Shown here in pieces: positions 26,482-52,655 of a stretch of 64,000 nucleotides of DNA. Made by a program: the position numbers and the translations under genes. The notes beneath the pieces were generated by a model. That model saw only the letters and a program-made list of their open reading frames with translations, ran no database searches and was not told the origin of the DNA. Origin of the DNA: a virus; IMG/VR virus record IMGVR_UViG_3300009128_000011, positions 8,017 to 72,016 of that record. The stretch is one strand, 5' to 3'. Numbering within the stretch: position 1 is the stretch's first letter; the number at the start of each line of letters is the position of its first letter.

Positions 26482-26487
26482 GCCCTC

Positions 26488-26517
26488 ATTCTAGCAGTGG
26501 CGTGTTGATTGCGTCAA
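26488..26517 (-). promoter_or_regulatory. Promoter for the leaderless double-HTH gene
   Basis: TTGACG-18 nt-TAGAAT, then 6 nt, then ATG. Confidence 0.7.
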
Positions 26518-26642
26518 CGGTGGGTTGCTGTAAGCGCACGGGACAGATTACCGCACGCTGCCCTTCGTTGCACTACGTGTAGGGCGGGGTTGACAACCTG
26601 TCGCGACGTCGTGCACCCTTTCCCCAGTACGGGAGTCGCCCC

Positions 26643-28574: not shown

Positions 28575-28634
28575 GGAACGACGGCGCCGCTGGGCGCAGG
28601 AGCAGAAGCCCCCAGACGGGGCGGGAGAGCCAGC

Positions 28635-31740: not shown

Positions 31741-31772
31741 CAGGAGCGGGCTGACGCCCGCGAGGAGACGCC

Positions 31773-34700: not shown

Positions 34701-35393
34701 GCCGAGGTGGGTCGTCTCGTCGACCTGTACCTGGTCAGCAACAACACGCAGCCGGGCATGCTCGCGTCCGAGGGGGTGCGAGCCGGCTACCTGCCGGTCG
34801 GCTACGACCCGCACCTGTCGGACTACCGTCGGGACGCGGGGCCGCAGGAGGGTGAAGGGGGGGTGGTGTTCGCCGGGCAGATGTACTGCCGGCTCGACCA
34901 CGGATTCCGCCGCCGGCTCTTCGAGGCGGTGGCGCAGCGCTTCCCTGGACACCTGACGCTGTTCGGGGGGCTGTGGGACCACTCGCCCATCCTCAAACCG
35001 TGCTGCGGTGGGCAGCGGGACCAGGAGGCCATGAGCTACGTCTACAGCCGAGCACGGGTCTCGGTGGCAACGTCGCTGTTCACGGACCTGCGTCGCTACA
35101 CCTCCGACAGGCTCAAGCGCATGCTCGGCAGCGGGGCGGTCACGGCGCTGCATGCCCTCGACGACTACGAGGGGCTCGGGATCCGCGACGGCGTGCACGC
35201 GCTGATCTGGCGTGACCAGCAGGATCTGCTCGGTCTCCTCGTCGACTGGCTGCGCCCGGAGCGAGACGGCGCTCGCCGGGCACTCCGGGAGGCGGCGCAC
35301 GCGCTGGCGTTGGAGTCCATGACCTGGGACGTGATCGTGGAGAACCTGCTCGCCATCGTGCGGGCGGAGAGGCACCGGAGGGCGACGTGCTGA
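31773..35393 (+). CDS. Four-domain protein: GT4 glycosyltransferase + SAM methyltransferase + GT2 glycosyltransferase + CgeB-like glycosyltransferase
   Basis: ETFGRTVAEAQAAGTPCVVSD; LHLGAG...ACHLLEHL...LQPGG; SVIIGTYNR...DGGSTDGT...NDD; GYDP...VVFAG...YTSDRL. Confidence 0.9.
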   Translation: MPPSSRRPGGRARNRGGYVPPGTAPPPPEPFDCDVPPLAVSGDLRVIWLVPYWDRLDGLVRGTEDLSGWLDQQPGVSSEIWSELPPKREGALHAPVGRYLPLDHRPTVVVSTTTATTPWLCRPGAARRPVPTAVYVHGESSWEPVRQAGLLDQVRTWFVPSAVFDWSTFTDWAKARQVVQVQPGFMPDAYRPRGRPPKRAGVLAINPCFGKGARTLLSMARAMPDVAFTLVLASIQPAYRGLGDLPNVKIVQPQEDLRPYYARAQVYVSPTHSETFGRTVAEAQAAGTPCVVSDLATLRATAGDGALYCVPDVVGPWVEACRAILDDEQTWQERSEAALTNAARYEAQEDFHVLLSTLRSLAPAVAAPVPRTRPQAPPPPPAACRELPRSGDPFPQGAVLHLGAGGKRVKGYVNTDVRKAQAPDGVVVDVQRTPLPARRFGAIYACHLLEHLYPEETVPILRRWLQALQPGGTVRLSVPDLRLVVANCVESQSFGPNPDAPLFGDFRKAAHDWDRHKRSFTVEILTRLLGEAGYVNVRPWVPSQYPEIAAVRDWSSYATISLNLEADRPEERALTPTLPGGPTPVEAAAPGEHVELSVIIGTYNRLEMLQTFVASVRNGVVLAGAAEPICSYEFVVADGGSTDGTLPWLAEQHDVRVVHGGLTGAIDAFNAAYEASWGELVMHANDDTRVEGDGVAVAVEYLRAHPEVGQVVFEWTRDGGKTWRHDGTQLGDVPPHPNQAVTRRLAIEDTIAHELGAFWGDEERRTHKTYGGDTYQWVVLARRGWQAVGLPGRCRIHDYMHEADDELREANLVGTGPGSDHALNFRKMSGVGRPGCWDLEIPGSGWPHVYVAEPGRPARRSPIAAGPEERPLVLHMGWGPEPLDGLRRAFARMGPYRDVPWVPLLNNGGPPAIEEGVLRAAAELQPTLVWMQIQRGDQFPMSTIRKLREVVPPECLLISWNGDVRTGGTASMEAWQAEVGRLVDLYLVSNNTQPGMLASEGVRAGYLPVGYDPHLSDYRRDAGPQEGEGGVVFAGQMYCRLDHGFRRRLFEAVAQRFPGHLTLFGGLWDHSPILKPCCGGQRDQEAMSYVYSRARVSVATSLFTDLRRYTSDRLKRMLGSGAVTALHALDDYEGLGIRDGVHALIWRDQQDLLGLLVDWLRPERDGARRALREAAHALALESMTWDVIVENLLAIVRAERHRRATC

Positions 35394-35938
35394 GGCGGCT
35401 GCGCCGGTGGCTCGTCGGGGACCGCGGCTTCGTGGTGTGGCTCACCGGTCTGCCGTGCTCGGGCAAGACCACGATGGCGAACCTGCTGGCGGGGGAGTTG
35501 CGTCGCCGTGGGCGCGGGGTGCTCGTCCTCGACGGCGACGCTGTGCGAGGAGGGCTCTCCTCCGATCTCGCCTTCGGGGACGAGGACCGGGCCGAGAACC
35601 TGCGCCGGCTACGGGAGGTTGCCCGGCTGGCTGCTCCCCAGGGGCTGGTGGTGGTCGTGGCAGCCATCACGCCCTACGAGAGCGAGCGGTTGAAGGTCCG
35701 CACGATGCCCGGGACTCTCCTGGCCTGGTGCAACGCGCCGGTGGCCGTCTGCGAGAGGCGGGACGTCAAGGGGATGTGGGCCAGGGCAAGGAAGGGGGAG
35801 ATCGAAGACTTCACCGGGGTGGACGGCCCCTACGACCAGCCGGCCACGTTCGACGTGCAGCTCTACACGGACTCGCTGACGGAGACAGCCGCGTTGCGGC
35901 AACTCTGGACAGCGCTTCGGGCCAAGGGGTGGGTGTGA
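35387..35938 (+). CDS. cysC: Adenylyl-sulfate (APS) kinase
   Basis: VWLTGLPCSGKTT, LDGDAVR, DRAENLRR, CERRDVKG, FTGVDGPY. Confidence 0.95.
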   Translation: MLRRLRRWLVGDRGFVVWLTGLPCSGKTTMANLLAGELRRRGRGVLVLDGDAVRGGLSSDLAFGDEDRAENLRRLREVARLAAPQGLVVVVAAITPYESERLKVRTMPGTLLAWCNAPVAVCERRDVKGMWARARKGEIEDFTGVDGPYDQPATFDVQLYTDSLTETAALRQLWTALRAKGWV

Positions 35939-36864
35939 CACGGCTCGTCCTGACCATCGACTGGCGCACGGCCGCGGCGGGCTGGCCCGGGGGGCAGCTC
36001 TACCTGCTCGACCTCGAGAGGCACGAGGTGCTCCACCACTACGTGGGGCCGCTCAAGCCCGCGGCGCTGACGCAGCCCGGGGGGTGGACGGGCTTCCGCG
36101 GCGTGTTCTGCCGCAACGGCCAGGCGTGGGTGGCGGACGCCGACAGCTTCCGGGTGTTCGACCTCGCCGGCGACCGCTTCCGGCTGGCCGAGGCGTGGAC
36201 CGCCCGGCGTTGGTACGACATCCACGACACCTGGCCGGACGCTGACGGCAAGACCTGGTGGGCGACCTCGACGTCTTCCGACGAGGTGGTGCGCTTCCGC
36301 AAGCACGGAGCGCACCTGCTGGCGACGGAGGAGATCTGGGACGCCTACCTCGACCCCGCGGTGGTCAATCCCGACACGGGGATGACGGGGCGCCGGAACG
36401 ACCTGCACCACATCAACTCGGTGTGCATCCACGGCGAGCAGCGGTGGGCGCTGGCGCACCGGGGCGGCAAGGTGATCCGCTTCGCCCCTGGCCCGACGTG
36501 GGTCCACCCCCATCCGGTGTACGGCGGTCACTCGCTGCGGATCACGCCCACCGGTGGCGTCCTCGTCCTCGACACGAAGGCAGAGAAGGTGTTCCTCCTC
36601 GACCCCCGGGGCGGCCCTCCTGTGCGCTCCATCGACTGCGGAGCCAAGCGGCTCGCCCCGAAGATCAACCCCAACACGGGCAAGCGGGCGGATTCCGGCT
36701 GGCTGCGTGGGTGCTGCGTGCTCGACGGGCAGCATGCGGTGGTGGCGACCTCGCCGGCGCAGCTCTTCGTGGTCAACTACAGGACGGGGAAGGTCGAGGA
36801 CTACTGGTGGATCGACAAGAAGGACGTCCGGGCGTCGACCTTCGGTCTGGACGTCGTGAGGTAG
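35935..36864 (+). CDS. Beta-propeller protein (DUF4915-like)
   Basis: GFRG, DIHD, DLHHINSV, GGHS, GWLRG blade motifs; GTGA overlap with cysC. Confidence 0.65.
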   Translation: MTRLVLTIDWRTAAAGWPGGQLYLLDLERHEVLHHYVGPLKPAALTQPGGWTGFRGVFCRNGQAWVADADSFRVFDLAGDRFRLAEAWTARRWYDIHDTWPDADGKTWWATSTSSDEVVRFRKHGAHLLATEEIWDAYLDPAVVNPDTGMTGRRNDLHHINSVCIHGEQRWALAHRGGKVIRFAPGPTWVHPHPVYGGHSLRITPTGGVLVLDTKAEKVFLLDPRGGPPVRSIDCGAKRLAPKINPNTGKRADSGWLRGCCVLDGQHAVVATSPAQLFVVNYRTGKVEDYWWIDKKDVRASTFGLDVVR

Positions 36865-36865
36865 C

Positions 36866-37630
36866 ATGCTGATCCCCCTGACCTACGGCTCGGAGCGCCC
36901 GGAGATCCTCGCCGAGTTCGCCGAGCTGTTCACCTCCCGCAACCCGCGGTGGAAGTGGCCCTTCGTCCACACGCTGTACGCCAACGAGTACGCGTGGACG
37001 GTGGACCGGCTGTTCGAGCGTCTGGGGGCCGACCTGACCGGCAAGCTGGTCATGGACGCCGGCGGGGGCGCCTCGGCGCTGCAGCACTATATCGCCCGGC
37101 GCGGCGCCGACGTGCTCAACGTCAGCCACGGGCCCGGGCAACTCCCGGGGAAGACGGCGGCGGGGGTGGTGATCCCGCGGGTCCGCTGCCACGCCGCTGA
37201 CCTGGTGGAGACCGGCCAGGAGCCGGGGACGTTCGACGCCATCGTGAGCGTGAGCGCCATCGAGCACAACCCGTGGCCCAAGATCGAGCGCATCGTGGCG
37301 CACCTGCTCGACCTGCTCAAGCCGGGAGCGCCGTTGATCGTGACGGTGCCGGCGGGGCGTGAGGGGAAGTGGTACCAGAGGGGGACCTTCCCCGGGCGGC
37401 CCGAGTTCCCGAACGTGTACCTGTGGGACATCGTTGCCTTGGACAGGCTCACTGCCGCCGTGTGGCCGATGGCTCATCTCGTTTCGCAGCGGGGGGGGCC
37501 AGGCCGGGAGAGGTTCGCCGAGGACTACCGAGCGGCCTGGGACGCCATGATGGCCGGGCGGGATTCCACCCCTGGCGCCCAGCGCATGCCCTACCTGTCG
37601 GCCGGCTTCGTGTTCGAGCAGCGAGCGTGA
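36866..37630 (+). CDS. Class I SAM-dependent methyltransferase
   Basis: EYAW, VMDAGGG, FDAIVSVSAIEH, LKPGA. Confidence 0.9.
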   Translation: MLIPLTYGSERPEILAEFAELFTSRNPRWKWPFVHTLYANEYAWTVDRLFERLGADLTGKLVMDAGGGASALQHYIARRGADVLNVSHGPGQLPGKTAAGVVIPRVRCHAADLVETGQEPGTFDAIVSVSAIEHNPWPKIERIVAHLLDLLKPGAPLIVTVPAGREGKWYQRGTFPGRPEFPNVYLWDIVALDRLTAAVWPMAHLVSQRGGPGRERFAEDYRAAWDAMMAGRDSTPGAQRMPYLSAGFVFEQRA

Positions 37631-37893
37631 TGTCCTCCTCGCAGCATCCACCATCTCTCCTTGGTGCACCCCGGGTGCCTGTGCTCGGGACCTACAAGGC
37701 GCGGTGCATGGATCCGTGTGATCATGAGGCCTGCAGAAGGGCGCGGGAGATCGTGGGTGCTGTGTGTCCTCTGTGCGGCAAGCCGGTGGGGCATGAAGGT
37801 TACTGCGTTCTCCGTGCGGGTGACTACGCGCACGCTGAGTGTGCCCGGGACGCCATCACGATAGGGGAGATCGACCCGGACAGCGTCCGATGA
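37630..37893 (+). CDS. Small Cys/His-rich hypothetical protein
   Basis: C..PC.H..C, CPLCG, HAEC; locally lower GC; overlaps both neighbours. Confidence 0.55.
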   Translation: MSSSQHPPSLLGAPRVPVLGTYKARCMDPCDHEACRRAREIVGAVCPLCGKPVGHEGYCVLRAGDYAHAECARDAITIGEIDPDSVR

Positions 37894-39563
37894 CCGCCCC
37901 CGACGTCGCAGTCCTCCTCGGCACGGTCGACCGGCCCGAGATGCTCGCCGAGTGCGTGGCGTCGATCCGGGAGAGCCTGGAGGGGAGCGGCTACACGCAC
38001 GAGGTCGTGGTGGCAGTCGGCACGAAGACGGAGCCGGCCCTCCCCTGGCTCCGCCAACAGCCCGACGTCGTGATCGTGCTCGGCGGCATGGACGGAGCGA
38101 TCCCCGCGTTCAACCGGGCCTGGGAACGGGCGGCCAAACTGTGTCCCCGCTACGTCTGCCAGATCAACGACGACGTGCTGATCGTGGGCGACTCACTCGC
38201 CCGTGCCCTCAACTACCTGGACCGGGACCGGGGGCTCGGGATGGTGGTCTTCACCTTCTCGGTGGATCGCGGGCACCGGTGGCTGGCGCCGACCTACCCT
38301 AGCGGTTACCCGCACCCGAACCAAATGGTGGCGCGTCGAGAACTTGTCGAGGAGGTCGCCCACGAGTTGGGCGCCTTCTGGGGTGACGAGGAGCACAGGA
38401 CGCACAAGACCTATGGGGGAGACACGGCGTTTGGCCTCTGGGCCTGTCGTCTCGGCTGGCGTGCGGAGCGAATGCCGGATGTGTGTTGCCATGATCTCAT
38501 GAGGGAGACTGATATCGCGCTGCGCAGGGCCAACCAGATTGGCACCGCAAGGCATGAGCGCGAGTTCGCCTACCGCTACCCCCCGGGCTTCGACAAGCCG
38601 GTGCGCCGGCTGGAGGAACGCAAAATGGACGAGCGCCCCCGCAACGTGGCCGGGACCGCCGGGATCGACAAGTCCCGCTTCGGCCCGCTCATGGACCGCT
38701 TCACGCTGGACGCCGTGAGCGGGATGGACCGGGAGACCTTCCGGGAGGAGGTCGCAGCCTTCGTCGAGGCCAACCCTTACGAGGCGTGGCGTCAGGCGTG
38801 GCAGGCCAACGACGGGACGTTCTTGGGGACGCTCTGTTGGGGGGCCGACCGCGAGTTCGTGCACCAAGGTCCGGGAGAGCGGAGGTGGTGGGTGAAGGGC
38901 GGCATGGACGACCGGCACGTCACCAACCTCGAGCGGGTGGTCAAGCCCGGGGGGCTCGACGTCGCAGCCCACGTCGAGGGCAAGATGGCCGCGGTCGTCG
39001 GCTGCTGGTGCGGGGAGGAGAACCTCCTCCTGCGCGCTCTCGGGGCTCGGGGAGTGGACGGCGTCGAGGAGGTCAAGGAGTACGCCCGGCTGGCCGGGCT
39101 CCAGCTCCACGCCTTCGAGGTCCCCGGGCGCGTCTGGCCCTGCTCGCTGTACGCCCTCCCGCTGGCGGAGGTGGCCGGGCTGTACGATCTGCTCTACGTC
39201 CCCGGGGTCATGTACCACCTGACCGACCCGGTGGCGGCGCTGGCCATCTTCTGGGCCATGCTCAAGCCGGGGGGCGTCCTCGCCTTCGAGACGGTCGTGA
39301 CGCCGACGCAGGGCGGCCCCCGCCCCATGGCGGCCTACCTCGGTGCGCAGGTGGCGGGGTGGAACTGGTGGGCGCCGACGCCGGAGGCCTACACGCAGAT
39401 GATGAGCGACGCCGGCTTCACCGACTGCCGGCAGGTGGACCAGGTCCCGGGGCGGGCGTGGTTCATGGGGGAGCGGACGGAGCGTCTCCCGCTGCTGGAG
39501 ACGGGCGCGGCGGGCTTCTCCCGGCCCGACCTGCTCAAGCAGATCCAGAGGCTCGCCAAGTAG
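37890..39563 (+). CDS. GT2 glycosyltransferase fused to a CmoB/DUF1698-like methyltransferase
   Basis: VLLGTVDR...QINDD; C-terminal VVGCWCG, GVMYHLTDP, LKPGGVLAFET, NWWAPT. Confidence 0.88.
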   Translation: MTAPDVAVLLGTVDRPEMLAECVASIRESLEGSGYTHEVVVAVGTKTEPALPWLRQQPDVVIVLGGMDGAIPAFNRAWERAAKLCPRYVCQINDDVLIVGDSLARALNYLDRDRGLGMVVFTFSVDRGHRWLAPTYPSGYPHPNQMVARRELVEEVAHELGAFWGDEEHRTHKTYGGDTAFGLWACRLGWRAERMPDVCCHDLMRETDIALRRANQIGTARHEREFAYRYPPGFDKPVRRLEERKMDERPRNVAGTAGIDKSRFGPLMDRFTLDAVSGMDRETFREEVAAFVEANPYEAWRQAWQANDGTFLGTLCWGADREFVHQGPGERRWWVKGGMDDRHVTNLERVVKPGGLDVAAHVEGKMAAVVGCWCGEENLLLRALGARGVDGVEEVKEYARLAGLQLHAFEVPGRVWPCSLYALPLAEVAGLYDLLYVPGVMYHLTDPVAALAIFWAMLKPGGVLAFETVVTPTQGGPRPMAAYLGAQVAGWNWWAPTPEAYTQMMSDAGFTDCRQVDQVPGRAWFMGERTERLPLLETGAAGFSRPDLLKQIQRLAK

Positions 39564-39572
39564 GAGGTCCCC

Positions 39573-40565
39573 ATGCCCACCGCTCTTCTCAGTGGCATCA
39601 CCGGCCAGGACGGCAGCTACCTCGCCGAGCTTCTGCTGGCGAGGGGCTACGAGGTCCACGGATTGATTCGCCGAGCGTCGAGCTTCAACACGGACCGGAT
39701 CGACCACATCTTCGGCCAGCTCCAGCTCCACCACGCCGACCTCACCGAGCCCGAGCGGCTGGCGTGGCTGCTGCGGGGGATCGAGCCGGACGAGGTCTAC
39801 CACCTGGGGGCGCAGTCCCACGTGCGGGTGAGCTTCGACACGCCGGGCTACACGGCGGCGGTGACGGGGCTGGGGACGCAGCATCTGCTGGAGGCGGTCT
39901 TCCGCCACCGCCCGGAGGCCCGGGTCTACGTGGCGTGCAGCTCCGAGATGTTCGGGGCGTCCCCGCCGCCGCAGGACGAGGCGACGCCGTTGCGGCCGCG
40001 GTCGCCGTACGCCTGTGCCAAGGTCTACAGCTTCCACCTGGCTCGGCACTACCGGGACCGGGGGCTGTTCGTGTCGGCGGGGATCCTCTTCAACCACGAG
40101 AGCGAGCGCCGCGGCGAGACCTTCGTCACCCGCAAGATCACCCGGGCGTTGGCCCGGATCCGCCTCGGGCTGCAGAACCGCCTCCAGCTCGGCAACCTGC
40201 AGGCGCGCCGGGACTGGGGGCACGCCGAGGACTACGTGCGCGCCATGTGGCTCATGCTCCAGGAGCAGATCCCGGACGACTACGTGATCGCCACCGGCGA
40301 GAGTCACTCCGTGGAAGACTTCCTCGGGGCGGCCTGCGCCTGGCACGAGATCGAGTTCCCGGACGAGCGGGTCGAAGTGGGCGTCCAGCGGCTGCTCCGG
40401 CCGACGGAGGTGGACGCGCTGGAGGGCGACGCCAGCAAGGCCAGAACGCGGCTCGGCTGGGAGCCGCGGATCACCTTCTCGGAGCTCGTCGACCGCATGT
40501 GCGAGGCGGACTACCGGCTGGCTCTCGGCGAGCGGGCCGCTGCTGTGGCGACCGGGGGCGGCTGA
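39573..40565 (+). CDS. gmd: GDP-mannose 4,6-dehydratase
   Basis: [44 protein letters not shown]. Confidence 0.97.
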
Positions 40566-43901: not shown

Positions 43902-44124
43902 CACGCTGACCCGCGACCGCGTCCAGGAGCTCGCCATCGAGGTGACCCGGGTGGCGACCCTCCTGGAGACGCAGGCGGGGCTACTGCCGGCGACGCAGGA
44001 GCTCGACCGCCGGCTGTCCCGGATCGAAGGTATCCTCAAGGTGGTGCTGATCGTGGGGACGCTGGCGACGGGGGCGGCCATCACGGCCCTCGTCAAGACG
44101 TTCATCGGAGGAACTGGTGGCTGA
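43885..44124 (+). CDS. Holin-like membrane protein
   Basis: Short coiled coil (LDRRLSRIEG) followed by a C-terminal TM helix. Confidence 0.5.
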   Translation: MPPSVDTLTRDRVQELAIEVTRVATLLETQAGLLPATQELDRRLSRIEGILKVVLIVGTLATGAAITALVKTFIGGTGG

Positions 44125-44788
44125 TCCGCTCGTCACGCTTGCCCAGGTCCGCGCCGAGGGGCTGACGGTGGCGCAGGCCTCCGACGCCAAGGTCACCGAG
44201 GCGATCCAGCTCGCCAGCGACCTGGTCGAGCGGCTGTGCCGGACGAGCTTCACCACGCAGACCTACACGACAGCGGCTCCCTTGCTGCTCAACGGCACGG
44301 GCCACGACACGATTTGGTTCGACGACCGGGTGCGGACCGTCACGGAGATCGGGATCCAGACTGCAGACGGGACGCAGCAGACGGCCTACAACGCCACCTC
44401 CTACCGGCTGTTCGCCAGCCGGACGCCGAGCGCCCGGGACTTCCGCAACCCCAAGGTCCAGCGGCTGGGGGCGCGGACCTTCCGGGAGGGGCTGCTCAAC
44501 GTCTACCTGGCCGGCACGGTGGGGACGACGGAGCTCGTCGGAGGGGTCGAGTCCGTCCCTCTCCTGATCCAGCGGGCGGTGCTGATCCTGGTGATCCAGG
44601 ACTTCGCCTGGCTGCTCACGGACGACGCCCGCCAGAAGATGCGACTCGGGCGCTTCGTGAAGTCGCAGACGACGGAGGGACACCGCTACGTGCTGTCCGA
44701 CATCGCCTTCTCGGGGGCGTACTCGGGCATCCGGGAGGTGGACCGGATCCTGCGCCTGTACTCGCCGCCGCTCGGGGTGCGGGCCTGA
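44117..44788 (+). CDS. Head-tail adaptor protein
   Basis: LVTLAQVR...ASDLVERLC...VPLLIQRAV...VDRILRLY. Confidence 0.75.
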   Translation: MADPLVTLAQVRAEGLTVAQASDAKVTEAIQLASDLVERLCRTSFTTQTYTTAAPLLLNGTGHDTIWFDDRVRTVTEIGIQTADGTQQTAYNATSYRLFASRTPSARDFRNPKVQRLGARTFREGLLNVYLAGTVGTTELVGGVESVPLLIQRAVLILVIQDFAWLLTDDARQKMRLGRFVKSQTTEGHRYVLSDIAFSGAYSGIREVDRILRLYSPPLGVRA

Positions 44789-45201
44789 TGTTCGGCCCCC
44801 CTCCCGCTCTCGACCTGGTCCATCCCGTCACGGTGACCATCGACCCGCTGGACACGGCGAGCACGAGGTGGGACGGCAGTGCCCGGGAGCCTGTCCCGCG
44901 AGAGTGCAGGCTGCCGACGGTGACCATCACCGCACAGGTCCACTGGACGAGGCGACGGGATCGCCAGCGGACGGCCGCGGGGCCGCAGGACAGCTCCGAC
45001 GGCTTCCTCGTCTTCCGCCGCGTGGACCTCACCGCGCAGGCCTACGACCCCCAGCCCGGCGACCGGGTGGCGACGATCACGGAGGCGGGGGTGGCGGTCA
45101 ACGTCTACCTGACCACGCCGGGGCAGCGCCGGGGCCAGTACGGGGGCAACTTCGGCCTCGTCCGGGCCTTCTTCGAGGACCGGCGCCCGCACCAGGACTG
45201 A
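44788..45201 (+). CDS. Head closure / stopper protein
   Basis: Position and size; PQPGDRV motif. Confidence 0.6.
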   Translation: MFGPPPALDLVHPVTVTIDPLDTASTRWDGSAREPVPRECRLPTVTITAQVHWTRRRDRQRTAAGPQDSSDGFLVFRRVDLTAQAYDPQPGDRVATITEAGVAVNVYLTTPGQRRGQYGGNFGLVRAFFEDRRPHQD

Positions 45202-45202
45202 C

Positions 45203-45796
45203 GTGCCCGCCCGCGGCGGCCTGCGACTCACCGGGGCGTGGAAGCGCTGGACCAAGCTCATCGATCCCCAGGACTTTGAGCGGCGCCTCCGACGGAACAT
45301 CCGGCAGGCGACGATCAAGAACGGTCTCCTCGTCGTTCGGGAGATCCGGCAGGGGATCAAGAACCGGGACTACGAGCCCAACGCCTTCTTGACGCTGGCG
45401 GCCAAGGCGCCGAAGGACAAGCCGCTCGTCGACAGCGGGGACTTGTTCAAGGCGATCACGAAGGTGGTCCTGGACGACTTCCGCGTCTTCGTCGGGGTCA
45501 AGAAGACGGCGAAGGGGAAGGAGGGGGAGGCGCTGGTCAACATCGGCGCAGCGCTCCATGAGGGCTACACGGTTCGGGTGACGCCGGCGATGCGAGCCGC
45601 GGTCTTCGCCCGAATCCACGGCAACCAGCAAGGGCGAGCCATCATCAAGGCCGACCCGCCGGCGGGCCCGGCAGCGAAGGTGTGGGTCATCCCCCCTCGC
45701 CCCTTCATCGAGGCGGTGCTCGAGCGCAAGGACATCCAGGAGCGGGTCAGGCGGAACTGGTCCCGGGCGGTGGAGCGGGCGCTGGTGGGGAAGTAG
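45203..45796 (+). CDS. Virion morphogenesis / neck protein (Mu gpG / HK97 gp10-like)
   Basis: KPLVDSGDL, LHEG, IPPRPF. Confidence 0.8.
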   Translation: MPARGGLRLTGAWKRWTKLIDPQDFERRLRRNIRQATIKNGLLVVREIRQGIKNRDYEPNAFLTLAAKAPKDKPLVDSGDLFKAITKVVLDDFRVFVGVKKTAKGKEGEALVNIGAALHEGYTVRVTPAMRAAVFARIHGNQQGRAIIKADPPAGPAAKVWVIPPRPFIEAVLERKDIQERVRRNWSRAVERALVGK

Positions 45797-45800
45797 GGGG

Positions 45801-46274
45801 CTACTTCGGCACCTTCCACCGGTCGGTAATCACCCGGACGGCGGCGAGGCAGAGGGCGTGCGGTAGGCAGTCGCCCTCGACGGTCCAATCGGCGCTGTAG
45901 GGCTCCATGTACACGCTCACCTGCTCCCAGAAGTGGATCGCCACGTTCCCCTCGTCGTCGAAAGTCCAGATCCAGTGCGAGGGCGAGTAGATGCGCTGTA
46001 GTCGCCTCCACACCTTCCAGCCGGCGGCGAGGTTGGTCGAGAACTGGTCCGGCATGTCCCCGGGCCGGATCCCGTAGGTGTCGGGCTCTATGCGATCCGG
46101 CAACCATGTCCGGGCCTGTACCCAGGTCGGGTCTTCGTCGGCTTCGTGCGTCCAGTGCAACACGCGCTTGACGAAGCGGCCCGGGCGCTCGAACAGGTAG
46201 GACTCGATCCAGGCGTCCAGTTCGACGCCGGCACGGAGCTGGTGTGGCTCGGGGTGGGGGAGCCGGGGCATCAT
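45801..46274 (-). CDS. Phage ABA-sandwich-like protein
   Basis: ELDAWI...FSTNLAAGWKV...PHALCLAA. Confidence 0.65.
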   Translation of the reverse strand: MMPRLPHPEPHQLRAGVELDAWIESYLFERPGRFVKRVLHWTHEADEDPTWVQARTWLPDRIEPDTYGIRPGDMPDQFSTNLAAGWKVWRRLQRIYSPSHWIWTFDDEGNVAIHFWEQVSVYMEPYSADWTVEGDCLPHALCLAAVRVITDRWKVPK

Positions 46275-46486
46275 GGCGCCTCCAGCAGCCGCACCTTCCG
46301 CAGCCACCGCGGGGACGCGCAGACCACCTCGTGCAGGTAGCCCGCCGGCACGTCCCAGAGGACGGGGACCGAGCGGCACCGTCTCGGAGCCTGGCAGGCC
46401 ATGCAGTGGTCCACCGTGCCGAAGCCGGCGCACTCGGGGTCGACATCCTCGACGCGCTCGCCGGGGGTGAAGTCGGTCGCCCTCAC
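46271..46486 (-). CDS. Hypothetical protein
   Basis: 4-nt overlaps with both neighbours. Confidence 0.55.
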   Translation of the reverse strand: MRATDFTPGERVEDVDPECAGFGTVDHCMACQAPRRCRSVPVLWDVPAGYLHEVVCASPRWLRKVRLLEAP

Positions 46487-46743
46487 GACGCCTTCTTCCT
46501 CCGGTCCGGGTGGTCCAGCCGGGCCTGATCGACCTCGTCCCGCAGGCGGTAGGACCAGTGCTCGGGGGGGTCGAGGGCGAGTTGCTGCAGGTCGCGCTCG
46601 AACGATCCGGTTGGGGTCGCCAGCCCCCGCACGTACTTCGACGCCTGCGTGTGGGAGCAGCCGAGCACCTGGGCGAGGCCGCGCTGGGTGAGGCCCGTCA
46701 CCTGGCAGGCGGTGCGGGCGAGGGTGGGGGTCTTGGTCTTCAT
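46483..46743 (-). CDS. XRE-type HTH protein
   Basis: GLTQRGLAQVLGCSHTQASKYVRG. Confidence 0.75.
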   Translation of the reverse strand: MKTKTPTLARTACQVTGLTQRGLAQVLGCSHTQASKYVRGLATPTGSFERDLQQLALDPPEHWSYRLRDEVDQARLDHPDRRKKAS

Positions 46744-47054
46744 GGGGTCTCGTTCTCCTTGGTGGTGGGATCCCAGCTCCGGACGCACATGATGGTCGAA
46801 CCGTCGGGCAGCCCTTCGTTGAGCAGTGCGCAAACGAGTGCGCGCACCCCGGGCTGGTCGGCCACTTCGAGCCGGTCCAGAAGCACGGGACAGACGGAAA
46901 CGGCTCTGCGCTCCCTGGCCTGCTCCTCTCCTTCCTGGAGCGTGGCGTAGAACCGGATGCGGCGAGTCCGCACGACCCGCGGCGTCCCGTCCGGACTCGG
47001 GTGAGCGCTCGGGCGCTCTTCCTGCCAGGTGACTCGGTAGACGGTGGCAGTCAT
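46740..47054 (-). CDS. Hypothetical protein
   Basis: GAGGGA SD; ATGA overlap. Confidence 0.55.
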   Translation of the reverse strand: MTATVYRVTWQEERPSAHPSPDGTPRVVRTRRIRFYATLQEGEEQARERRAVSVCPVLLDRLEVADQPGVRALVCALLNEGLPDGSTIMCVRSWDPTTKENETP

Positions 47055-47249
47055 CTAGTTGTCCCTCCCCAGCCGCAGGGGGCAGGTGTCGCAGGACGGC
47101 AGCCCCAACCGGAGGCGGATGACCATCTCCTCCTCGTCGGTGAGACCGGCGTCTTGGATGAGGCGCTCCACCTCCTCTCGCCCCTCGGGGGTGCGGGCCT
47201 TGGCGCGCAGCTCGTCGAGCCTGGTGTCGTCGTCGTTCTTCGTGGCCAT
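47055..47249 (-). CDS. Hypothetical protein (sigma region-4-like LTDEEEMVIRLRLGL)
   Basis: GGAGG SD; packed within the cassette. Confidence 0.55.
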   Translation of the reverse strand: MATKNDDDTRLDELRAKARTPEGREEVERLIQDAGLTDEEEMVIRLRLGLPSCDTCPLRLGRDN

Positions 47250-47251
47250 GG

Positions 47252-47872
47252 CTATGCCAGCGCCTCCACCGTGCCCTCGAACGCCTGGCCCTGGAAGGTC
47301 CACTCGCCGTCGTCCCAGCACTCGTAGGCGGCAGCGGTCTCCCGCACGAACTCGGCCAGCGTGTAGGCCGGCCCGTCGTCGAGCATCACGTCGAAGCCGT
47401 CGGGCTCGTCCAGGGTGGTGATCCGGTGGGTGGGCTTCCACCCGTCGAGCACGCCGGGCGCCCACTCGTAGGTCTCGTCGCCGTCGATGGCCTCGTCGAT
47501 CAGCCGGTCCTGCTCGGCGCGGTAGGCGATCTCGAAGGTGCGCACCGTCTCGGGCGTGGGCTCCGGTCCGGTGAGCTCGTGCAGCCCGTTCTCGAAGTCG
47601 CCGTCGTAGGGGTCGTGGGGCTCGGCGGGGAGCCCGACGGCCTTCGCGTTGCCCTGGGCGCACTCGACGGCGCAGGTGACGATCAGCTCGGGGAGGAGGG
47701 GATCCTCCATCCAGATCAGCCCCGCGTCCTCGGCGGCGACCTCCCGGGCCTCGGCCCGCGTCAGGTCGTCGCAGGCGCCCTCCTCGGGGTCGGCGTACTT
47801 GCAGAGCAGCAGGTTGTGCTCCTCCGCGTGGTCGATGGCGGCGTGTCCGGTCAGGGTGCAGGTGGCGTCCAC
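47252..47872 (-). CDS. Acidic hypothetical protein immediately downstream of the hammerhead
   Basis: GAGGAGG SD before the GTG at 47872; alternative in-frame ATG at 47896. Confidence 0.75.
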   Translation of the reverse strand: MDATCTLTGHAAIDHAEEHNLLLCKYADPEEGACDDLTRAEAREVAAEDAGLIWMEDPLLPELIVTCAVECAQGNAKAVGLPAEPHDPYDGDFENGLHELTGPEPTPETVRTFEIAYRAEQDRLIDEAIDGDETYEWAPGVLDGWKPTHRITTLDEPDGFDVMLDDGPAYTLAEFVRETAAAYECWDDGEWTFQGQAFEGTVEALA

Positions 47873-47887
47873 GGTGTCCTCCTCGGT

Positions 47888-47951
47888 GTCGTGCATCCCG
47901 GACGGGCCGAAGCCCGTTTCGTCCGCCGCCGCGGACTCGTCAGCGGGCGAC
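47888..47951 (-). ncRNA. Type I hammerhead ribozyme
   Basis: GUCG-CCCG / CUGACGA / GUCCGC-GGCG-GCGGAC / GAA / ACGGGC-UUCG-GCCCGU / C / CGGG-AUGCA-CGAC: complete core, three paired stems, GUC cleavage triplet. Confidence 0.93.
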
Positions 47952-48158
47952 GTCCCAGTCCATCCCCTCCCGGCGCCCGTTCTCCGTCCACTCGGCCCAG
48001 CGGGGGAGGTCGGACGGCCTGAGGTCGGCGGCCTGGAGGATGCGCATCCGCACCCCCGCGTCCGTCGCCCCGCACAGGTTGACGGGACCCTCGACGAACC
48101 GCTTGCAGATGCGGGCGTTGGGGCCGTAGGCGATGGTGATGTTGGCGGCCTTGCTCAT
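47940..48158 (-). CDS. Hypothetical protein whose stop codon lies in the hammerhead core
   Basis: GAGGAGGAG SD; MSKAANITIAYG... Confidence 0.65.
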   Translation of the reverse strand: MSKAANITIAYGPNARICKRFVEGPVNLCGATDAGVRMRILQAADLRPSDLPRWAEWTENGRREGMDWDVAR

Positions 48159-48276
48159 CTTCTCCTCCTCGGTGTCGTAGCCTCCTACCCCGAAAGCCCC
48201 GACCCTTGCGGGTACGGGCGGGGGAGGGGGAGGGGGGCGGTCTAGGCGGCGAAGTCGGGGGAGGAAGGTCTGCATG

Positions 48277-48480
48277 CTACGCCAGCGCCTGCACCAGCGG
48301 GGCGTAGAAGCCGCCGCTGTCCGCGTCCACCTGGTTGCTGTAGTCGACCTCCCACCCATCGGGGATGACCGCGTCGACCTCCTCGGCGTCCACGCCGTCC
48401 GCGTACCAGACGCGGGGGCCGACGGCGGCGTCGAGGTCGATGATGACGGCGTCGAACTGCTGCCGGGGCGTGGCGTCCAT
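48277..48480 (-). CDS. Acidic hypothetical protein, first gene of cassette 4
   Basis: GGAG SD; 33 nt from the predicted TSS; alternative ATG at 48513. Confidence 0.65.
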   Translation of the reverse strand: MDATPRQQFDAVIIDLDAAVGPRVWYADGVDAEEVDAVIPDGWEVDYSNQVDADSGGFYAPLVQALA

Positions 48481-48512
48481 GTCGTGCTCCGTGTTGTTGT
48501 GTTCCCTGACCA

Positions 48513-48579
48513 TGCCTATATGGTACCAACCCCCTTCGTGGACGTCAAGGGGAAAAGCGCACGGTGGGCAAAAAAGATC
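48513..48579 (-). promoter_or_regulatory. Conserved cassette promoter, copy 4
   Basis: GATCTTTTTTGCCCACCGTGCGCTTTTCCCC-TTGACG-17 nt-TACCAT. Confidence 0.85.
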
Positions 48580-49946: not shown

Positions 49947-52655
49947 ATGCCAAGCCGCATCTACGGCCCGATCAACGCCCCTGGAGTCGGGCTCGAGGAG
50001 CTCACGACCCCCCGGCCGCCCCAGCCGGGGCAGATCGGGACGAGCTACGTCCTCGGCTCGTACCGCCGGGGCCCCGTGGGCGGTCCCGGGGTGCCCCCCG
50101 TGGCGATCCGTTCCATGGCCGACCTCTGGCGGCGCCGTGGCGTCAAGGTCGACGCGGCCGCGGATCACTGCGCCGAGCAGGCCTGCCGGGCCTTCCTCGA
50201 TATGGCCGAGGGCGGCGGAGCGCTGTACACCGAGCGCGTCTGCGACGGGACCGAGGTGGCCTCCACCTGGACCCTGCTCACCCGCCGGTGCCCCCGCGGC
50301 GTCCTGTGCCGCAACGACGACACGCTGACCCCGACGGCGGTCACGGCCGTCTGCGAGTGGGCGGGCCGGGACGGCGGCAAGCAGAAGATCCTCGGCGGTC
50401 TGCTTCCCCTGCTGGCGAACATCACGGTCACGACCGTGGCGACCAGTAAGACGATGCTGCTCAACGAGCTGCGCGGCGGCACGCTGACCCTGCGGGGCGT
50501 GAGCGCCCGCACCTACACCATCGTGAGCAACACCACGGCCGGCGTGATCAGCGTCGAAGCCGATGCCACGATGGATACCGACATCGCGGCCGACGACCCG
50601 ACGAACCTCTACTGGATGGTCGAGGTCGTCAACCTGGAGACCGACGAGGAGAAGGGGGCGACCCGGCGTGCCGTCGCCCTGCGCGTTTCCCCGCGGGGGG
50701 CCAGGCGCCCCGCCATCGAGTGCGGCCTGCGGGTCAAGCTCGACCGCTTCGAGCAGCAGCACTACCCCGACCTGTCCATGGTCGCCGGCATCCCCGGACG
50801 CTCCGAGATCGCCGGACGGGTCAACAACGACAGCAACAACCACGAAGTCACGCTGGTCAACGCCTGGACGGGGGGAGACCAGGCGGACGCCCGGCCCGCC
50901 AACTGGGCCGGCATCGCCACCGCGGTCTCCGCCGGCGGCCTGACCCTGCGAATCGTCGAGTGGCAGCGGACGGTGGGCAACGCGACGGGGTGGATCGACA
51001 CCTTCACCTACGGCACCGACCTGCGCCCGCAGACCATCACGCTGACCTTCCTGACGCCGACCACCTACACGGTGGCCACCGACCTGGGGATCGAGGACAT
51101 CCCGAACGCGGGGGCGCTGGGGGCCAACGCGCTGGACGCGCTGCACCCGCAGCTCATGGGCTTCACCGTGACCGCCGGCGCCGTGGCCTTCCAGGCCGGC
51201 GACGTCATCGTGATCCGGGTCAAGGCGCTCCCCACCGACGGGCAGATGGTGGGGGCCCGGCTCTGGCCGGACGGCGACGGCACCAACGCCGGCGTGAGCG
51301 TCCCGATCCAGTCCAGCACCTCCCGCACCGTGACGGTGCCGACGAGCTACGACCTGACCTCTCTGGCGAGCGTCCCCCTCCAGGCGGGGGCGACGACCAC
51401 CGCGGCGGGCCCGTGGAACACCGCGGCCGGCTCCCACGGTGGTCCGGTCACCCTGACGGGGATCTCCGTCACCCAGGACGGGACGGCGGTGGCGGTGGCC
51501 GACTACACCTTCCCCGACACGGTCAACCTGACCGCTGCCGCCCTCAAGGCCGACTGGGACGCCCACGCTGCCTGTCTGCTGGCGACGATCAACGCCGACG
51601 GGACCGTGACGCTGGGCAGCGAGGGGACCGGCGGCCTGGTGAGCTTCACCTACACGGGCGGCACGGCCATCGGGATCCTGATGCCGGCCGCTGCCACCTG
51701 GACCGGCACCGACGGCTCCCTGATCCTGATCGAGTACGACCAGGAGGGGCAGGCGGGCTACGACGGCATCGCCGCCCTGGCCGCCGCGGACGTCGTCGGA
51801 GCGCTCGACCAGAACGGCAGCATCGCCGAGATCCAGGAGGACAACACCGGCCTGATCGTCATCGCCGCCCCCGGCTGGGCGTTCGACAACGTGGTGGCCG
51901 CGGGCAACCAGCTCGCCGCGGACATCAACGCCGTCTTCCTGCCCGAGTACGCCATCACCGTCCTGACCGAGGCCGCTGCCGTGGCCAAGATCTCGGACGA
52001 CTGGGGGCTCGACGACTTCATGTGGCCCTTCTGGCCGTCGTGGGGCTTCGTCGACGCCCGGGACGGCGCAGGAGGGCAGGAGCAGGTCTCCCTGGCTGGC
52101 CACATCATGGGGCTGCAGGCGCGCTCCTGGGCCAGCAACGGCATGGGCAAGGCGCCGTCGGGGACCTCGACGAAGCTGCGGGGCGTCCTGCGTCTGCTCA
52201 AAGCGAACGACGACGTGCTCCCCGATGCCGAGCAGCTCAACCTGACGGGCATCCGGACCATCACGAAGCGCGGCACGACCGACTTCATCATCTGGGGCGA
52301 CCGGTGCCCCGGGGAGACCGAGGTCTGGGTCCACAAGCGGGCGATCAAGGGGCAGGTGGGGCGGGAGCTCGTCTACCCCGGCAACTTCGCCCAGTACATC
52401 TTTGAGACGAACGACACCACCCTGTGGGGCCGGCTCAACGTCGCCCTGCGCCAGCTCCTGCTGCCGCACTACGAGGACGGCTGGTTCGACTCGGATCGGG
52501 AGTTCGACGACGCGGTGCAGATCCAGATCGACGACGAGAACAACACCGCGGCCACCATCGCCGCCGGCCGGGTCATCGTGGACCTCGGCCTGTACCTGCC
52601 GAACACGGCCGAGCAGATCTGGTTCCGGCTCTCCGAGCTGGGCGTGGAGATCTAG
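49947..52655 (+). CDS. Contractile tail sheath protein
   Basis: N-terminal APGV.LEE, RGPVG; C-terminal IWGDR, YIFETNDTTLW, IDDENNT...GRV...NTAEQI. Confidence 0.92.
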   Translation: MPSRIYGPINAPGVGLEELTTPRPPQPGQIGTSYVLGSYRRGPVGGPGVPPVAIRSMADLWRRRGVKVDAAADHCAEQACRAFLDMAEGGGALYTERVCDGTEVASTWTLLTRRCPRGVLCRNDDTLTPTAVTAVCEWAGRDGGKQKILGGLLPLLANITVTTVATSKTMLLNELRGGTLTLRGVSARTYTIVSNTTAGVISVEADATMDTDIAADDPTNLYWMVEVVNLETDEEKGATRRAVALRVSPRGARRPAIECGLRVKLDRFEQQHYPDLSMVAGIPGRSEIAGRVNNDSNNHEVTLVNAWTGGDQADARPANWAGIATAVSAGGLTLRIVEWQRTVGNATGWIDTFTYGTDLRPQTITLTFLTPTTYTVATDLGIEDIPNAGALGANALDALHPQLMGFTVTAGAVAFQAGDVIVIRVKALPTDGQMVGARLWPDGDGTNAGVSVPIQSSTSRTVTVPTSYDLTSLASVPLQAGATTTAAGPWNTAAGSHGGPVTLTGISVTQDGTAVAVADYTFPDTVNLTAAALKADWDAHAACLLATINADGTVTLGSEGTGGLVSFTYTGGTAIGILMPAAATWTGTDGSLILIEYDQEGQAGYDGIAALAAADVVGALDQNGSIAEIQEDNTGLIVIAAPGWAFDNVVAAGNQLAADINAVFLPEYAITVLTEAAAVAKISDDWGLDDFMWPFWPSWGFVDARDGAGGQEQVSLAGHIMGLQARSWASNGMGKAPSGTSTKLRGVLRLLKANDDVLPDAEQLNLTGIRTITKRGTTDFIIWGDRCPGETEVWVHKRAIKGQVGRELVYPGNFAQYIFETNDTTLWGRLNVALRQLLLPHYEDGWFDSDREFDDAVQIQIDDENNTAATIAAGRVIVDLGLYLPNTAEQIWFRLSELGVEI

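What the first reader, a model, noticed from the sequence alone, without database searches (positions are those of the whole stretch)
47888..47951. Canonical hammerhead ribozyme splitting a phage operon, with the upstream stop codon inside its catalytic core
Seen on the minus strand: stem I CCCG/CGGG extended by GUCG/CGAC across an AUGCA bulge, core CUGACGA, stem II GUCCGC-GGCG-GCGGAC, GAA, stem III ACGGGC-UUCG-GCCCGU, then C. Predicted cleavage is after GUC, between 47901 and 47900. The UGA of the CUGA core is the stop codon of gene 47940-48158. The 3' product would begin CGGGAUG, 28 nt before the SD-led GUG of the next gene. Known: hammerheads occur in bacterial and phage intergenic regions and leave 5'-OH and 2',3'-cyclic phosphate ends, but their roles are mostly unknown. 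Inference: a terminating ribosome would unfold the core, making cleavage translation-dependent and decoupling the downstream six genes from the upstream two.
Basis: partly seen in the sequence, partly recalled or inferred. Interest (0 to 1): 0.85.

Follow-up and report, generated by a model that had tools for sequence, protein, structure and literature searches.

The report
Phage hammerhead ribozyme overlapping a stop codon
A textbook self-cutting RNA (a type I hammerhead ribozyme) sits between two small genes of an uncultured marine phage, and the upstream gene's stop codon lies inside its catalytic core; a survey suggests this layout is common among phage hammerheads, so this copy is an ordinary member of its class.

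Summary
Window 47888-47951 (minus strand) encodes a canonical type I hammerhead. All 13 consensus core positions and the three core-adjacent pairs are present, with 6-bp stems II and III and cleavage after C 47901. Rfam RF00163 gives 32.4 bits against a cut-off of 34 (E 3.7e-4 for the window). A descriptor finds 1 site in the window and 0 in 200 shuffles. The core UGA (47942-47940) is the stop of a 72-codon gene with GC3 0.97. An SD-led GUG lies 28 nt after the cut.

The host is a 72-kb, 70% GC marine myovirus with only this one hammerhead. It lies in a minus-strand eight-gene cassette driven by a promoter module that occurs four times.

The stop-in-core layout is not unique. Among 131 clustered phage type I hammerhead contexts, the core UGA ends the longest upstream ORF in 18, and the stop overlaps stem I in 25 more.

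The most likely function is self-cleavage that splits g1-g2 mRNA from g3-g8 mRNA. Control by translation is physically plausible but untested. No RNA data and no orthologous loci were available. This scan has noted stop-codon-embedded phage hammerheads before on other DNA. Verdict: a new member of a known kind.

The parts
47888..47951 (-). Type I hammerhead ribozyme, including the distal stem I extension. The Rfam match spans 47895-47949.
47937..47943 (-). Catalytic core strand CUGACGA (C3-A9). The UGA at 47942-47940 is the stop codon of g2.
47921..47936 (-). Stem II (6 bp) with loop GGCG (47930-47927)
47901..47920 (-). G12 A13 A14, stem III (6 bp, UUCG loop) and C17. The predicted cut is 3' of 47901.
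47892..47900 (-). Stem I 3' strand CGGG plus the AUGCA bulge/tail. The tail is a candidate partner of loop II. It also holds the AUG (47896-47894) that the public gene call uses as the start of g3.
47940..48158 (-). g2, 72 aa, no known family. It ends at the core UGA.
   Evidence: GC3 0.97, frame plot. A 97%-identical variant has the same length and C-terminus. No Pfam or PHROG match.
47877..47892 (-). 16-nt ribosome-binding module ACGACACCGAGGAGGA. It is identical to 48163-48178 upstream of g2, and each copy lies 4 nt before its start codon.
47252..47872 (-). g3, 206 aa from GUG 47872 (214 aa if started at AUG 47896). It has no relatives.
45801..47249 (-). g4 (47249-47055), g5 (47054-46740), g6 (46743-46483, an Xre-type HTH protein), g7 (46486-46271) and g8 (about 46274-45801)
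48277..48513 (-). Predicted transcript start (about 48513), 33-nt leader, and g1. The start of g1 is most likely ATG 48480, giving 67 aa.
48520..48548 (-). Promoter TTGACG - 17 nt - TACCAT, one of four copies of a conserved promoter-leader module

Best explanation
This is a genuine type I hammerhead ribozyme. It self-cleaves the polycistronic RNA of a minus-strand accessory cassette between g2 and g3.

Inferred course of events: host RNA polymerase starts at the promoter at 48548-48520. Once the 64-nt element is transcribed it folds and cuts after C 47901. The 5' product is the g1-g2 mRNA. It keeps its stop codon 39 nt from the new end and finishes in the two stable hairpins of the ribozyme with a 2',3'-cyclic phosphate. 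The 3' product is the g3-g8 mRNA. It starts with a 5'-OH, a 28-nt leader and an exposed Shine-Dalgarno sequence. The two halves can then have different stabilities and translation rates.

The overlap of the stop codon with the core is the tightest form of a packing seen throughout phage type I hammerheads. It means that ribosomes finishing g2 transiently unfold the ribozyme. I take this as a modulation of cleavage rather than a proven switch.

What is shown: the sequence, the fold, the statistical significance, the gene frames, the promoter family and the class-wide layout. What is inferred: cleavage in vivo, the fate of the two products, and any effect of translation.
For: All consensus core positions and all three core-adjacent pairs are present. 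They meet the criteria quoted from the Methods of Perreault 2011. RF00163 aligns over the full model with E 3.7e-4 per window, and it is the only credible Rfam hit in the 72-kb genome. The descriptor found 1 site against 0 in 200 shuffles. A model built from 46 other phage type I hammerheads scores this one at 50.5 bits, with the next hit at 11.3 bits. That score is partly circular, see the Against line. In those 46 sequences stem I was not imposed by the search pattern. Its four core-adjacent pairs are paired in 43-45 of 46 sequences, with 12-20 double-sided changes each, while slid controls are 27-43% paired. The class is therefore real, and this copy has the same 4-bp stem I. The gene frames on both sides are well supported (GC3 0.97 and 0.98). 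The promoter occurs 1 time against 0.1 expected and belongs to a four-copy module with 79% mean column identity. In the layout survey, the stop of the longest upstream ORF lies within -13..+4 of C3 in 77 of 131 clusters, against 23 of 616 random positions. Downstream starts typically lie 20-40 nt after the cut. Literature, passages read: hammerheads flank genes in prophages and cut about 2-kb polycistronic RNAs in vitro and in E. coli, and processing into single-gene mRNAs was proposed (PMC3088659). Type II hammerheads near phage-like genes cleave in vivo (PMC8782182).
Against: There is no direct evidence of transcription or cleavage, because no RNA run was listed. No orthologous locus exists, so covariation could not be tested for this copy itself. 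The RF00163 score is below the curated cut-off (32.4 against 34). The stems are GC-rich and folding energy is no better than shuffles (z -0.69). In 131-261 nt of native context the hammerhead fold is 4.6-5.8 kcal/mol worse than the nearest-neighbour MFE, which pairs ribozyme strands with the end of g2. The ribozyme could therefore be trapped in an inactive fold. The class-specific model came from sequences retrieved with a pattern copied from this hammerhead's own core and stem bases, so its 50.5 bits overstates independence. The stem I to loop II tertiary contact is only a 3-nt complement with one G-U. The direction of the effect on g3-g8 is unknown. From recall, a 5'-OH end can protect against RNase E-type decay, but the 5'-OH glmS ribozyme product is degraded by RNase J1.
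Confidence: 0.7

Rival explanations
1. Translation-gated ribozyme. Because the g2 stop codon is U4-G5-A6 of the core, ribosome occupancy at the end of g2 decides whether the ribozyme can fold. Cleavage, and hence the fate of g3-g8 mRNA, would then report how heavily g2 is translated. This would be a selected regulatory coupling, not a by-product.
For: The overlap is real. The layout recurs in 18 of 131 clusters, and in 3 of 5 hammerheads of one 1.3-kb array. In 43 of 107 contexts with a clear upstream ORF, the stop overlaps the ribozyme. No spacer that would shield the ribozyme from terminating ribosomes has been kept. In context, the MFE pairs ribozyme strands with the last g2 codons, which translation would open. 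From established knowledge, a ribosome covers roughly 12-15 nt 3' of the A-site codon. That reaches the 5' strand of stem II here.
Against: Dense phage genomes would produce the same flush packing without any regulatory role. The stop positions are spread over -13..+1 rather than fixed. The alternative pairings differ with the length of context folded and are absent from the most similar hammerhead, L029. I therefore found no conserved 'locked' state here. There are no expression data.
Confidence: 0.25
2. Cleavage creates a nearly leaderless mRNA. The AUG at 47896-47894, 4 nt after the cut and in frame with g3, would be the real start. It would be used from the 5'-OH end, as leaderless mRNAs are used in actinobacteria.
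For: The public gene call starts g3 at this AUG, giving 214 aa. All 8 codons between the AUG and the GUG end in G or C. Among 152 surveyed contexts, 7 have an ATG within 10 nt after the cut, and 5 of these 7 open into ORFs of 64 or more codons.
Against: The identical 16-nt SD module sits 4 nt before the g2 ATG, where it is non-coding, and 4 nt before the GUG at 47872. This favours the GUG as the start. Only 7 of 152 hammerheads have such an ATG, and two of those seven are near-duplicates. The AUG lies within the AYGCA tail motif shared with related hammerheads, so its presence may be structural.
Confidence: 0.1
3. The hammerhead is mainly a portable junction of mobile gene cassettes. Under this reading it is a module that travels between unrelated phages with accessory genes, and any effect on expression is secondary.
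For: The five phage records carrying the most similar hammerheads share no detectable terminase with this phage (0 of 5). They also share no flanking proteins with it. The cassette is inverted and sits between the neck genes and the sheath genes. Perreault 2011 notes that the flanked genes are not constant.
Against: Hammerheads are simple enough to arise repeatedly, as discussed in PMC3088659, so similarity need not mean transfer. No repeats or recombination scars were found apart from the 16-nt RBS module. This is an account of origin, not an alternative mechanism.
Confidence: 0.1
4. The element is a chance look-alike or an inactive relic.
For: The score is below the Rfam cut-off. The fold is not more stable than shuffles. 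The fold is not the MFE in context.
Against: E is 9.8e-8 per genome. There were 0 descriptor hits in 200 shuffles. No core position deviates, and both hairpins are perfect 6-bp helices. All 11 hammerhead matches in five other GC-rich phage records also score below the cut-off, so the cut-off is simply ill-suited to this subclass.
Confidence: 0.04

Closest known systems
Hammerhead ribozymes flanking genes in prophages and phages (Perreault et al. 2011, PMC3088659; passages read)
   Same: Same consensus core and same intercistronic position among small phage genes of varying identity. The same role was proposed, namely cutting long phage transcripts into shorter mRNAs. A pseudoknot or loop contact between stems I and II is common.
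   Different: This phage has a single copy, not a cluster. It is type I and GC-rich, with 6-bp stems. The words 'stop codon' occur 0 times in that paper's main text, so the overlap with the upstream stop is not discussed there. I could not see the supplements.
Hammerhead variant of haloviruses HF1/HF2, 13 nt upstream of a helicase start codon (discussed in PMC3088659)
   Same: It is a phage hammerhead just upstream of the first gene of an early polycistronic unit. A mapped 5' end lies within 3 nt of the cut site, which suggests activity in vivo.
   Different: That ribozyme is a core variant from an archaeal virus. Here the core is fully canonical, the leader is 28 nt, and no 5' end mapping exists.
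Type II hammerheads near phage-like genes in Desulfovibrio vulgaris, shown to cleave in vivo by cyPhyRNA-seq (PMC8782182; abstract and passages)
   Same: These are bacterial or phage-context hammerheads with demonstrated 2',3'-cyclic-phosphate and 5'-OH products. The same assay would settle this case.
   Different: The topology differs: type II leaves stem II open, whereas here stem I is open. Nearly the whole ribozyme therefore stays on the upstream mRNA.
Clec2 3'-UTR hammerhead of mammals (as described in the review PMC6765202)
   Same: It is a hammerhead placed just after the end of a coding region, so cleavage changes the fate of the mRNA.
   Different: That case is eukaryotic and discontinuous, and it acts by removing the poly(A) signal. 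It does not overlap the stop codon.
Earlier notes of this scan on other DNA (e1-6044132, e1-3481804, e1-6048749; AI notes)
   Same: They describe phage hammerheads that begin with, or are locked by, the upstream gene's stop codon. They also note that a link to translation is unproven.
   Different: Those notes concern type II modules or arrays with a separate stop-codon hairpin. Here a lone type I ribozyme uses the core UGA itself as the stop.

Membership tests
Hammerhead ribozyme, type I (structural definition; criteria quoted from Perreault 2011 Methods) | Core C3 U4 G5 A6 N7 G8 A9, G12 A13 A14, A15.1, U16.1, H17 with no substitution | tested here: met
   CUGACGA at 47943-47937, GAA at 47920-47918, A 47917, U 47902, C 47901
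Hammerhead ribozyme, type I (structural definition; criteria quoted from Perreault 2011 Methods) | Standard pairs directly adjacent to the core: N10.1-N11.1, N1.1-N2.1, A15.1-U16.1 | tested here: met
   G 47936 with C 47921, C 47900 with G 47944, A 47917 with U 47902
Hammerhead ribozyme, type I (structural definition; criteria quoted from Perreault 2011 Methods) | Three helices without multiple mispairs. Type I topology: stems II and III are closed by loops and stem I is open. | tested here: met
   Stems II and III are 6 perfect pairs each. Stem I has 4 pairs plus 4 more beyond a 5-nt bulge. The MFE of the isolated 68 nt gives this fold.
Hammerhead ribozyme, type I (structural definition; criteria quoted from Perreault 2011 Methods) | Tertiary contact between stem I and loop II, needed for fast cleavage at physiological Mg2+ | tested here: inconclusive
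   Loop GGCG and tail AUGCA allow only GCG:UGC, with one G-U. Across the class, loop GGCG goes with an AYGCA tail in 3 of 6 cases against 2 of 155 (Fisher p 3e-4). Loop GCGG goes with a CCGC tail in 6 of 9 against 4 of 152. The numbers are small, the sequences are related, and this copy is counted among them.
Hammerhead ribozyme, type I (structural definition; criteria quoted from Perreault 2011 Methods) | Site-specific self-cleavage that gives 2',3'-cyclic phosphate and 5'-OH ends | not testable with these tools
   No RNA run was listed. This needs in vitro transcription or end-specific RNA-seq.
Rfam RF00163 Hammerhead_1 (automatic annotation threshold, an operational criterion and not a structural one) | Bit score at or above the curated gathering score of 34 | tested here: not met
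   The score is 32.4 bits over the full model 1-45, with E 3.7e-4 per window. In five other GC-rich phage records, 0 of 11 hammerhead matches reach 34 bits (they score 17-32). At E<=0.01, 14 control genomes give 0 matches.
Phage intercistronic hammerheads (context class of Perreault 2011) | Located between co-oriented small genes of a phage or prophage transcription unit | tested here: met
   The host is a myovirus genome with terminase, portal, tape measure and sheath. The ribozyme lies between g2 and g3 of an eight-gene minus-strand cassette that has an upstream promoter.

The most novel reading that the evidence does not exclude
The core UGA acts as a sensor of translation termination. Ribosome dwell time at the g2 stop would set how often the ribozyme can fold. 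From recall, UGA followed by C is a slow termination context in E. coli. Phage type I hammerheads as a class would then couple the cutting of an operon RNA to translation of the upstream cistron. In 43 of 107 surveyed contexts the stop lies inside the ribozyme. That would make them natural ribosome-gated ribozymes rather than constitutive processing sites.
Probability: 0.25. Interest if true: 0.7.

Novelty: new member of a known kind. Interest (0 to 1): 0.35.

Why it matters
Taken alone, this is one more phage hammerhead, a kind known since 2011 whose biological role is still called unresolved in the 2019 review (PMC6765202). Its value is as a clean, minimal test case: one ribozyme, one promoter, and two well-defined cistrons, with the stop codon inside the catalytic core. 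The survey made here bears on the open question of what bacterial and phage hammerheads are for. Upstream stops lie within -13..+4 of C3 in 77 of 131 clusters, against 23 of 616 control positions. That turns the idea of a link between translation termination and ribozyme folding into an experiment that can be done with reporters. I found no paper that states this positional rule. My searches were made, 'stop codon' is absent from PMC3088659 and PMC6765202, and I could not see supplements. This scan has noted the rule repeatedly on other DNA.

Tried and rejected
Relatives. There was no DNA match in the phage collection. IMG/VR held no relatives of g2, g3 or the 432-aa neighbour. g3 found only itself among 5.8 billion proteins. 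g2 found only a 97% variant with the same length and C-terminus. One metagenome pattern scan gave two more hammerheads of the same subfamily but with unrelated neighbours. Covariation at the orthologous site could therefore not be tested.

Expression. No RNA holder was listed. The four runs laid were DNA contigs. One contig covers 46834-48208 with 0 differences, and no variant lies in the ribozyme.

Gene function. There were no Pfam or PHROG hits for g1-g5, g7 and g8. The protein atlas gave no usable hit for g3.

Thermodynamic support. The z-scores of -0.69, -0.18 and +0.18 are uninformative in this GC-rich RNA.

A decayed second hammerhead in the g1-g2 spacer. I rejected this, because only the 16-nt RBS module is shared and no core is present.

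A conserved 'locking' hairpin of the kind earlier scan notes describe. Alternative pairings exist, but they change with the length of context folded and are not shared with the closest hammerhead. This is not established.

Other ribozymes in the genome. None was found at E<=1, and the class model found none.

A words look-up failed because it had too many words. I did not resend it.

Full report
1. What is in the sequence.
The minus strand of 47951-47888 contains every element of a type I hammerhead.
- Stem I: the 5' strand GUCG-CCCG (47951-47944) pairs with CGGG (47900-47897) and, beyond a 5-nt AUGCA bulge, with CGAC (47891-47888).
- Core: CUGACGA at 47943-47937.
- Stem II: six pairs closed by GGCG (47936-47921).
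- GAA at 47920-47918.
- Stem III: six pairs closed by UUCG (47917-47902), starting A-U.
- C17 at 47901. The predicted cut lies between 47901 and 47900.

ViennaRNA folds the isolated 68 nt into exactly this shape (-30.6 kcal/mol).

2. Is it more than chance?
- At Rfam's curated thresholds nothing is reported, because RF00163 scores 32.4 bits against a gathering score of 34.
- The alignment covers the whole model. E is 1.4e-6 on 251 nt, 3.7e-4 on the whole window against all 4227 families and 9.8e-8 for the 72-kb genome.
- It is the only credible Rfam hit in the genome.
- A descriptor of my own required the core, stem II of at least 3 bp, stem III of at least 4 bp, stem I of at least 4 bp and H17. 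It finds one site in the window and none in 200 first-order shuffles on both strands.
- The sub-threshold Rfam score is a property of this subclass. In five other GC-rich phage records, 0 of 11 hammerhead matches reach 34 bits (17-32 bits), while 14 control genomes give no match at E<=0.01.
- A covariance model built from 46 other phage type I hammerheads scores this one at 50.5 bits (E 3.8e-14). The next hit scores 11.3 bits and lacks the core. That figure is partly circular, because the 46 were retrieved with a pattern copied from this ribozyme's own core and stem-proximal bases.
- Stem I was not in the retrieval pattern. In those 46 sequences its four core-adjacent pairs are paired in 43-45 of 46, with 12-20 double-sided changes each. 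Slid controls drop to 27-43% paired.
- Folding energy gives no support (z -0.69), as expected at 75% GC.

3. The genes around it.
The window is 8017-72016 of a 72,016-bp IMG/VR virus record rated complete. It has 70% GC, and the DNA occurs in marine metagenome runs. PHROG matches identify a myovirus.
- Terminase: 19388.
- Portal and head proteins: 21159-29912.
- Head-tail adaptor and neck: 44051-45796.
- Tail sheath: 49947-52655.
- Tape measure: 54239.
- Baseplate.

Between the neck genes and the sheath module lies an inverted cassette of eight small minus-strand genes, 48513-45801. GC3 frame plots support each of them. Only g6 has a family match, an Xre-type HTH.

g2 (48158-47940, 72 aa, GC3 0.97) ends with the core UGA at 47942-47940. 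Independent public gene calls give the same 72-aa product, and a 97%-identical variant keeps the same length and C-terminus.

g3 most likely starts at GUG 47872. The 16-nt module ACGACACCGAGGAGGA that precedes it by 4 nt is repeated exactly 4 nt before the g2 ATG, where it is non-coding. The public call instead uses the in-frame AUG at 47896, 4 nt after the cut.

The cassette has a sigma-70-type promoter, TTGACG-17-TACCAT, at 48548-48520. The scan found 1 such site against 0.1 expected in shuffles. The four share the -35 box, the -10 box and a 33-nt leader, at 79% mean column identity. Transcription across the ribozyme is therefore well grounded, though still a prediction. The alignment also suggests that g1 starts at ATG 48480.

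4. Is the stop codon in the core special?
I scanned IMG/VR with two patterns that fix only the core and the first pairs of stems II and III. They returned 97 stretches (N7=C) and 109 stretches (N7=U).
- After removing duplicates, and requiring at least 160 nt of upstream sequence, 164 contexts remained. They collapse to 131 clusters, this one included.
- The stop of the longest upstream ORF (at least 50 codons) lies within -13..+4 of C3 in 77 of 131 clusters, against 23 of 616 random positions in the same loci.
- Of the 107 clusters that have such an ORF, the stop is the core UGA in 18, overlaps the 5' strand of stem I in 25, ends 1-6 nt before stem I in 30, and lies farther away in 34.
- The pattern holds for contigs below 55% GC, where long ORFs are more trustworthy: 13 core and 16 stem I of 66.
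- In one complete 49-kb phage, five hammerheads lie within 1.3 kb. For three of them the only open frame of at least 40 codons ends at the core UGA.
- Downstream, an SD-led start usually follows 20-40 nt after the cut. Here the distance is 28 nt.

It is the tight end of a general layout in which the ribozyme fills the whole gap between two cistrons.

Limits of the survey: the two patterns sample only hammerheads whose stem-proximal bases match this one. ORF length stands in for gene calling. Clustering only partly removes relatedness.

5. Subfamily and tertiary contact.
The most similar hammerheads are L029, L009, L208 and L209. They share stem I CCCG/CGGG (CCUG/CGGG, with one G-U wobble, in L208), loop II GGCG and the tail AYGCA.
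- Across the 161 distinct contexts, loop GGCG goes with an AYGCA tail in 3 of 6 cases against 2 of 155 (p 3e-4). Loop GCGG goes with a CCGC tail in 6 of 9 against 4 of 152.
- The mean longest loop-tail complement (2.89) exceeds all 200 permutations (2.60 +/- 0.05).
- This fits the stem I to stem II pseudoknot described by Perreault 2011. For this copy the contact would be only GCG:UGC, so it remains inconclusive.
- The phages carrying these relatives share no terminase (0 of 5) and no flanking proteins with this one.

6. Mechanism.
The best-supported reading is a self-cleaving processing site. Because the ribozyme is type I, almost all of it stays on the upstream product. The g1-g2 mRNA keeps its stop codon 39 nt from the new end and finishes in two stable hairpins with a cyclic phosphate. 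The g3-g8 mRNA begins with a 5'-OH and a short leader. Differential stability or translation of the two halves is the role proposed in the literature (PMC3088659; PMC6765202). I cannot say which half is favoured.

A ribosome terminating at the core UGA must open stem I, the core and part of stem II (established ribosome footprint geometry). Translation of g2 and folding of the ribozyme therefore exclude each other at any instant.

In 131-261 nt of context the hammerhead fold is 4.6-5.8 kcal/mol above the MFE, which pairs ribozyme strands with the last g2 codons. Translation could therefore also free the ribozyme. These alternative pairings are not stable across context lengths and are not conserved in L029. 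I give a selected translational gate 0.25 and constitutive processing with incidental modulation 0.7.

7. Comparison and novelty.
All structural criteria for a hammerhead are met. Only Rfam's operational cut-off is missed, and cleavage itself is untestable here.

The context matches the prophage and phage hammerheads of Perreault 2011. The difference is a lone type I copy whose core supplies the stop codon. I found no paper that states the stop-codon relation. 'Stop codon' occurs 0 times in the main texts of PMC3088659 and PMC6765202. Supplements were closed, and Perreault's alignments and gene-context figures may bear on this.

Earlier AI notes of this scan report the same theme on other DNA (e1-6044132, e1-3481804, e1-6048749). 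My verdict is a new member of a known kind, with modest interest.

Noticed in passing
window 48513-48579, 7615-7681, 17532-17598, 19300-19366 (minus strand): There are four copies of one promoter-plus-leader module. Each has a T-rich upstream element, TTGAC, a 17-nt spacer, a TAC..T -10 box and a conserved 33-nt leader before an invariant ATG. Mean column identity is 79%. Only the copy at 48548 drives a cassette that contains a hammerhead.
   Followed up: partly
window 24602-25708 (+): A head-module protein carries a 2H (LigT-like) phosphoesterase domain at residues 80-184. Pfam gives PF13563 at 33 bits (cut-off 27) and PF02834 at 25.4 bits (cut-off 23.3). It is fused to a weak XkdF-type protease match. 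From recall, enzymes of this superfamily act on 2',3'-cyclic phosphate ends, which is the end a hammerhead leaves. The co-occurrence is a single case and no link is shown. The lead came from e1-6174414.
   Followed up: partly
window 47877-47892 and 48163-48178 (minus strand): An identical 16-nt Shine-Dalgarno module lies 4 nt before the start codons of both g2 and g3. Allowing up to 2 mismatches, the 15-nt core of the module has 7 matches in the window against 0.68 expected. Its first four bases form the distal extension of stem I.
   Followed up: yes
window 48159-48276 (minus strand): The 118-nt g1-g2 spacer has a long C-rich tract that can pair with the G-rich SD region of g2 in the MFE. The fold is no better than shuffles (z 0.18).
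   Followed up: partly
window 31755-40565 (+): Glycosyltransferase, methyltransferase and nucleotide-sugar epimerase genes are embedded in the virion structural module, including a 1212-aa multidomain protein. This suggests glycosylation of the virion or of the host surface.
   Followed up: no
window 45801-48513: The whole eight-gene cassette is inverted relative to the late structural genes. It is wedged between the neck genes (which end at 45796) and the sheath module (which starts at 48636), like a moron or an early/immunity island.
   Followed up: partly
L207 (G004:C1:21500-24300) and L206 (G001:C1:30500-35000): Other GC-rich phages carry arrays of type I hammerheads. One has five within 1.3 kb by my descriptor, of which Rfam RF00163 lists four at E<=0.01. 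The other has four by Rfam within 2.3 kb, of which my descriptor finds three. Roughly one sits at each gene junction, each followed by a loop II-complementary tail, an SD and an ATG.
   Followed up: partly
five GC-rich IMG/VR records (G001-G005): Rfam RF00163 under-scores GC-rich phage type I hammerheads. None of 11 matches reaches the gathering score. Routine annotation will therefore miss this subclass.
   Followed up: partly
L001, L007, L010, L034, L101, L108, L124: An ATG lies within 10 nt after the cleavage site in 7 of 152 contexts, and 5 of these open into ORFs of 64 or more codons. This could mean occasional near-leaderless translation from the 5'-OH end, or it could be chance.
   Followed up: partly
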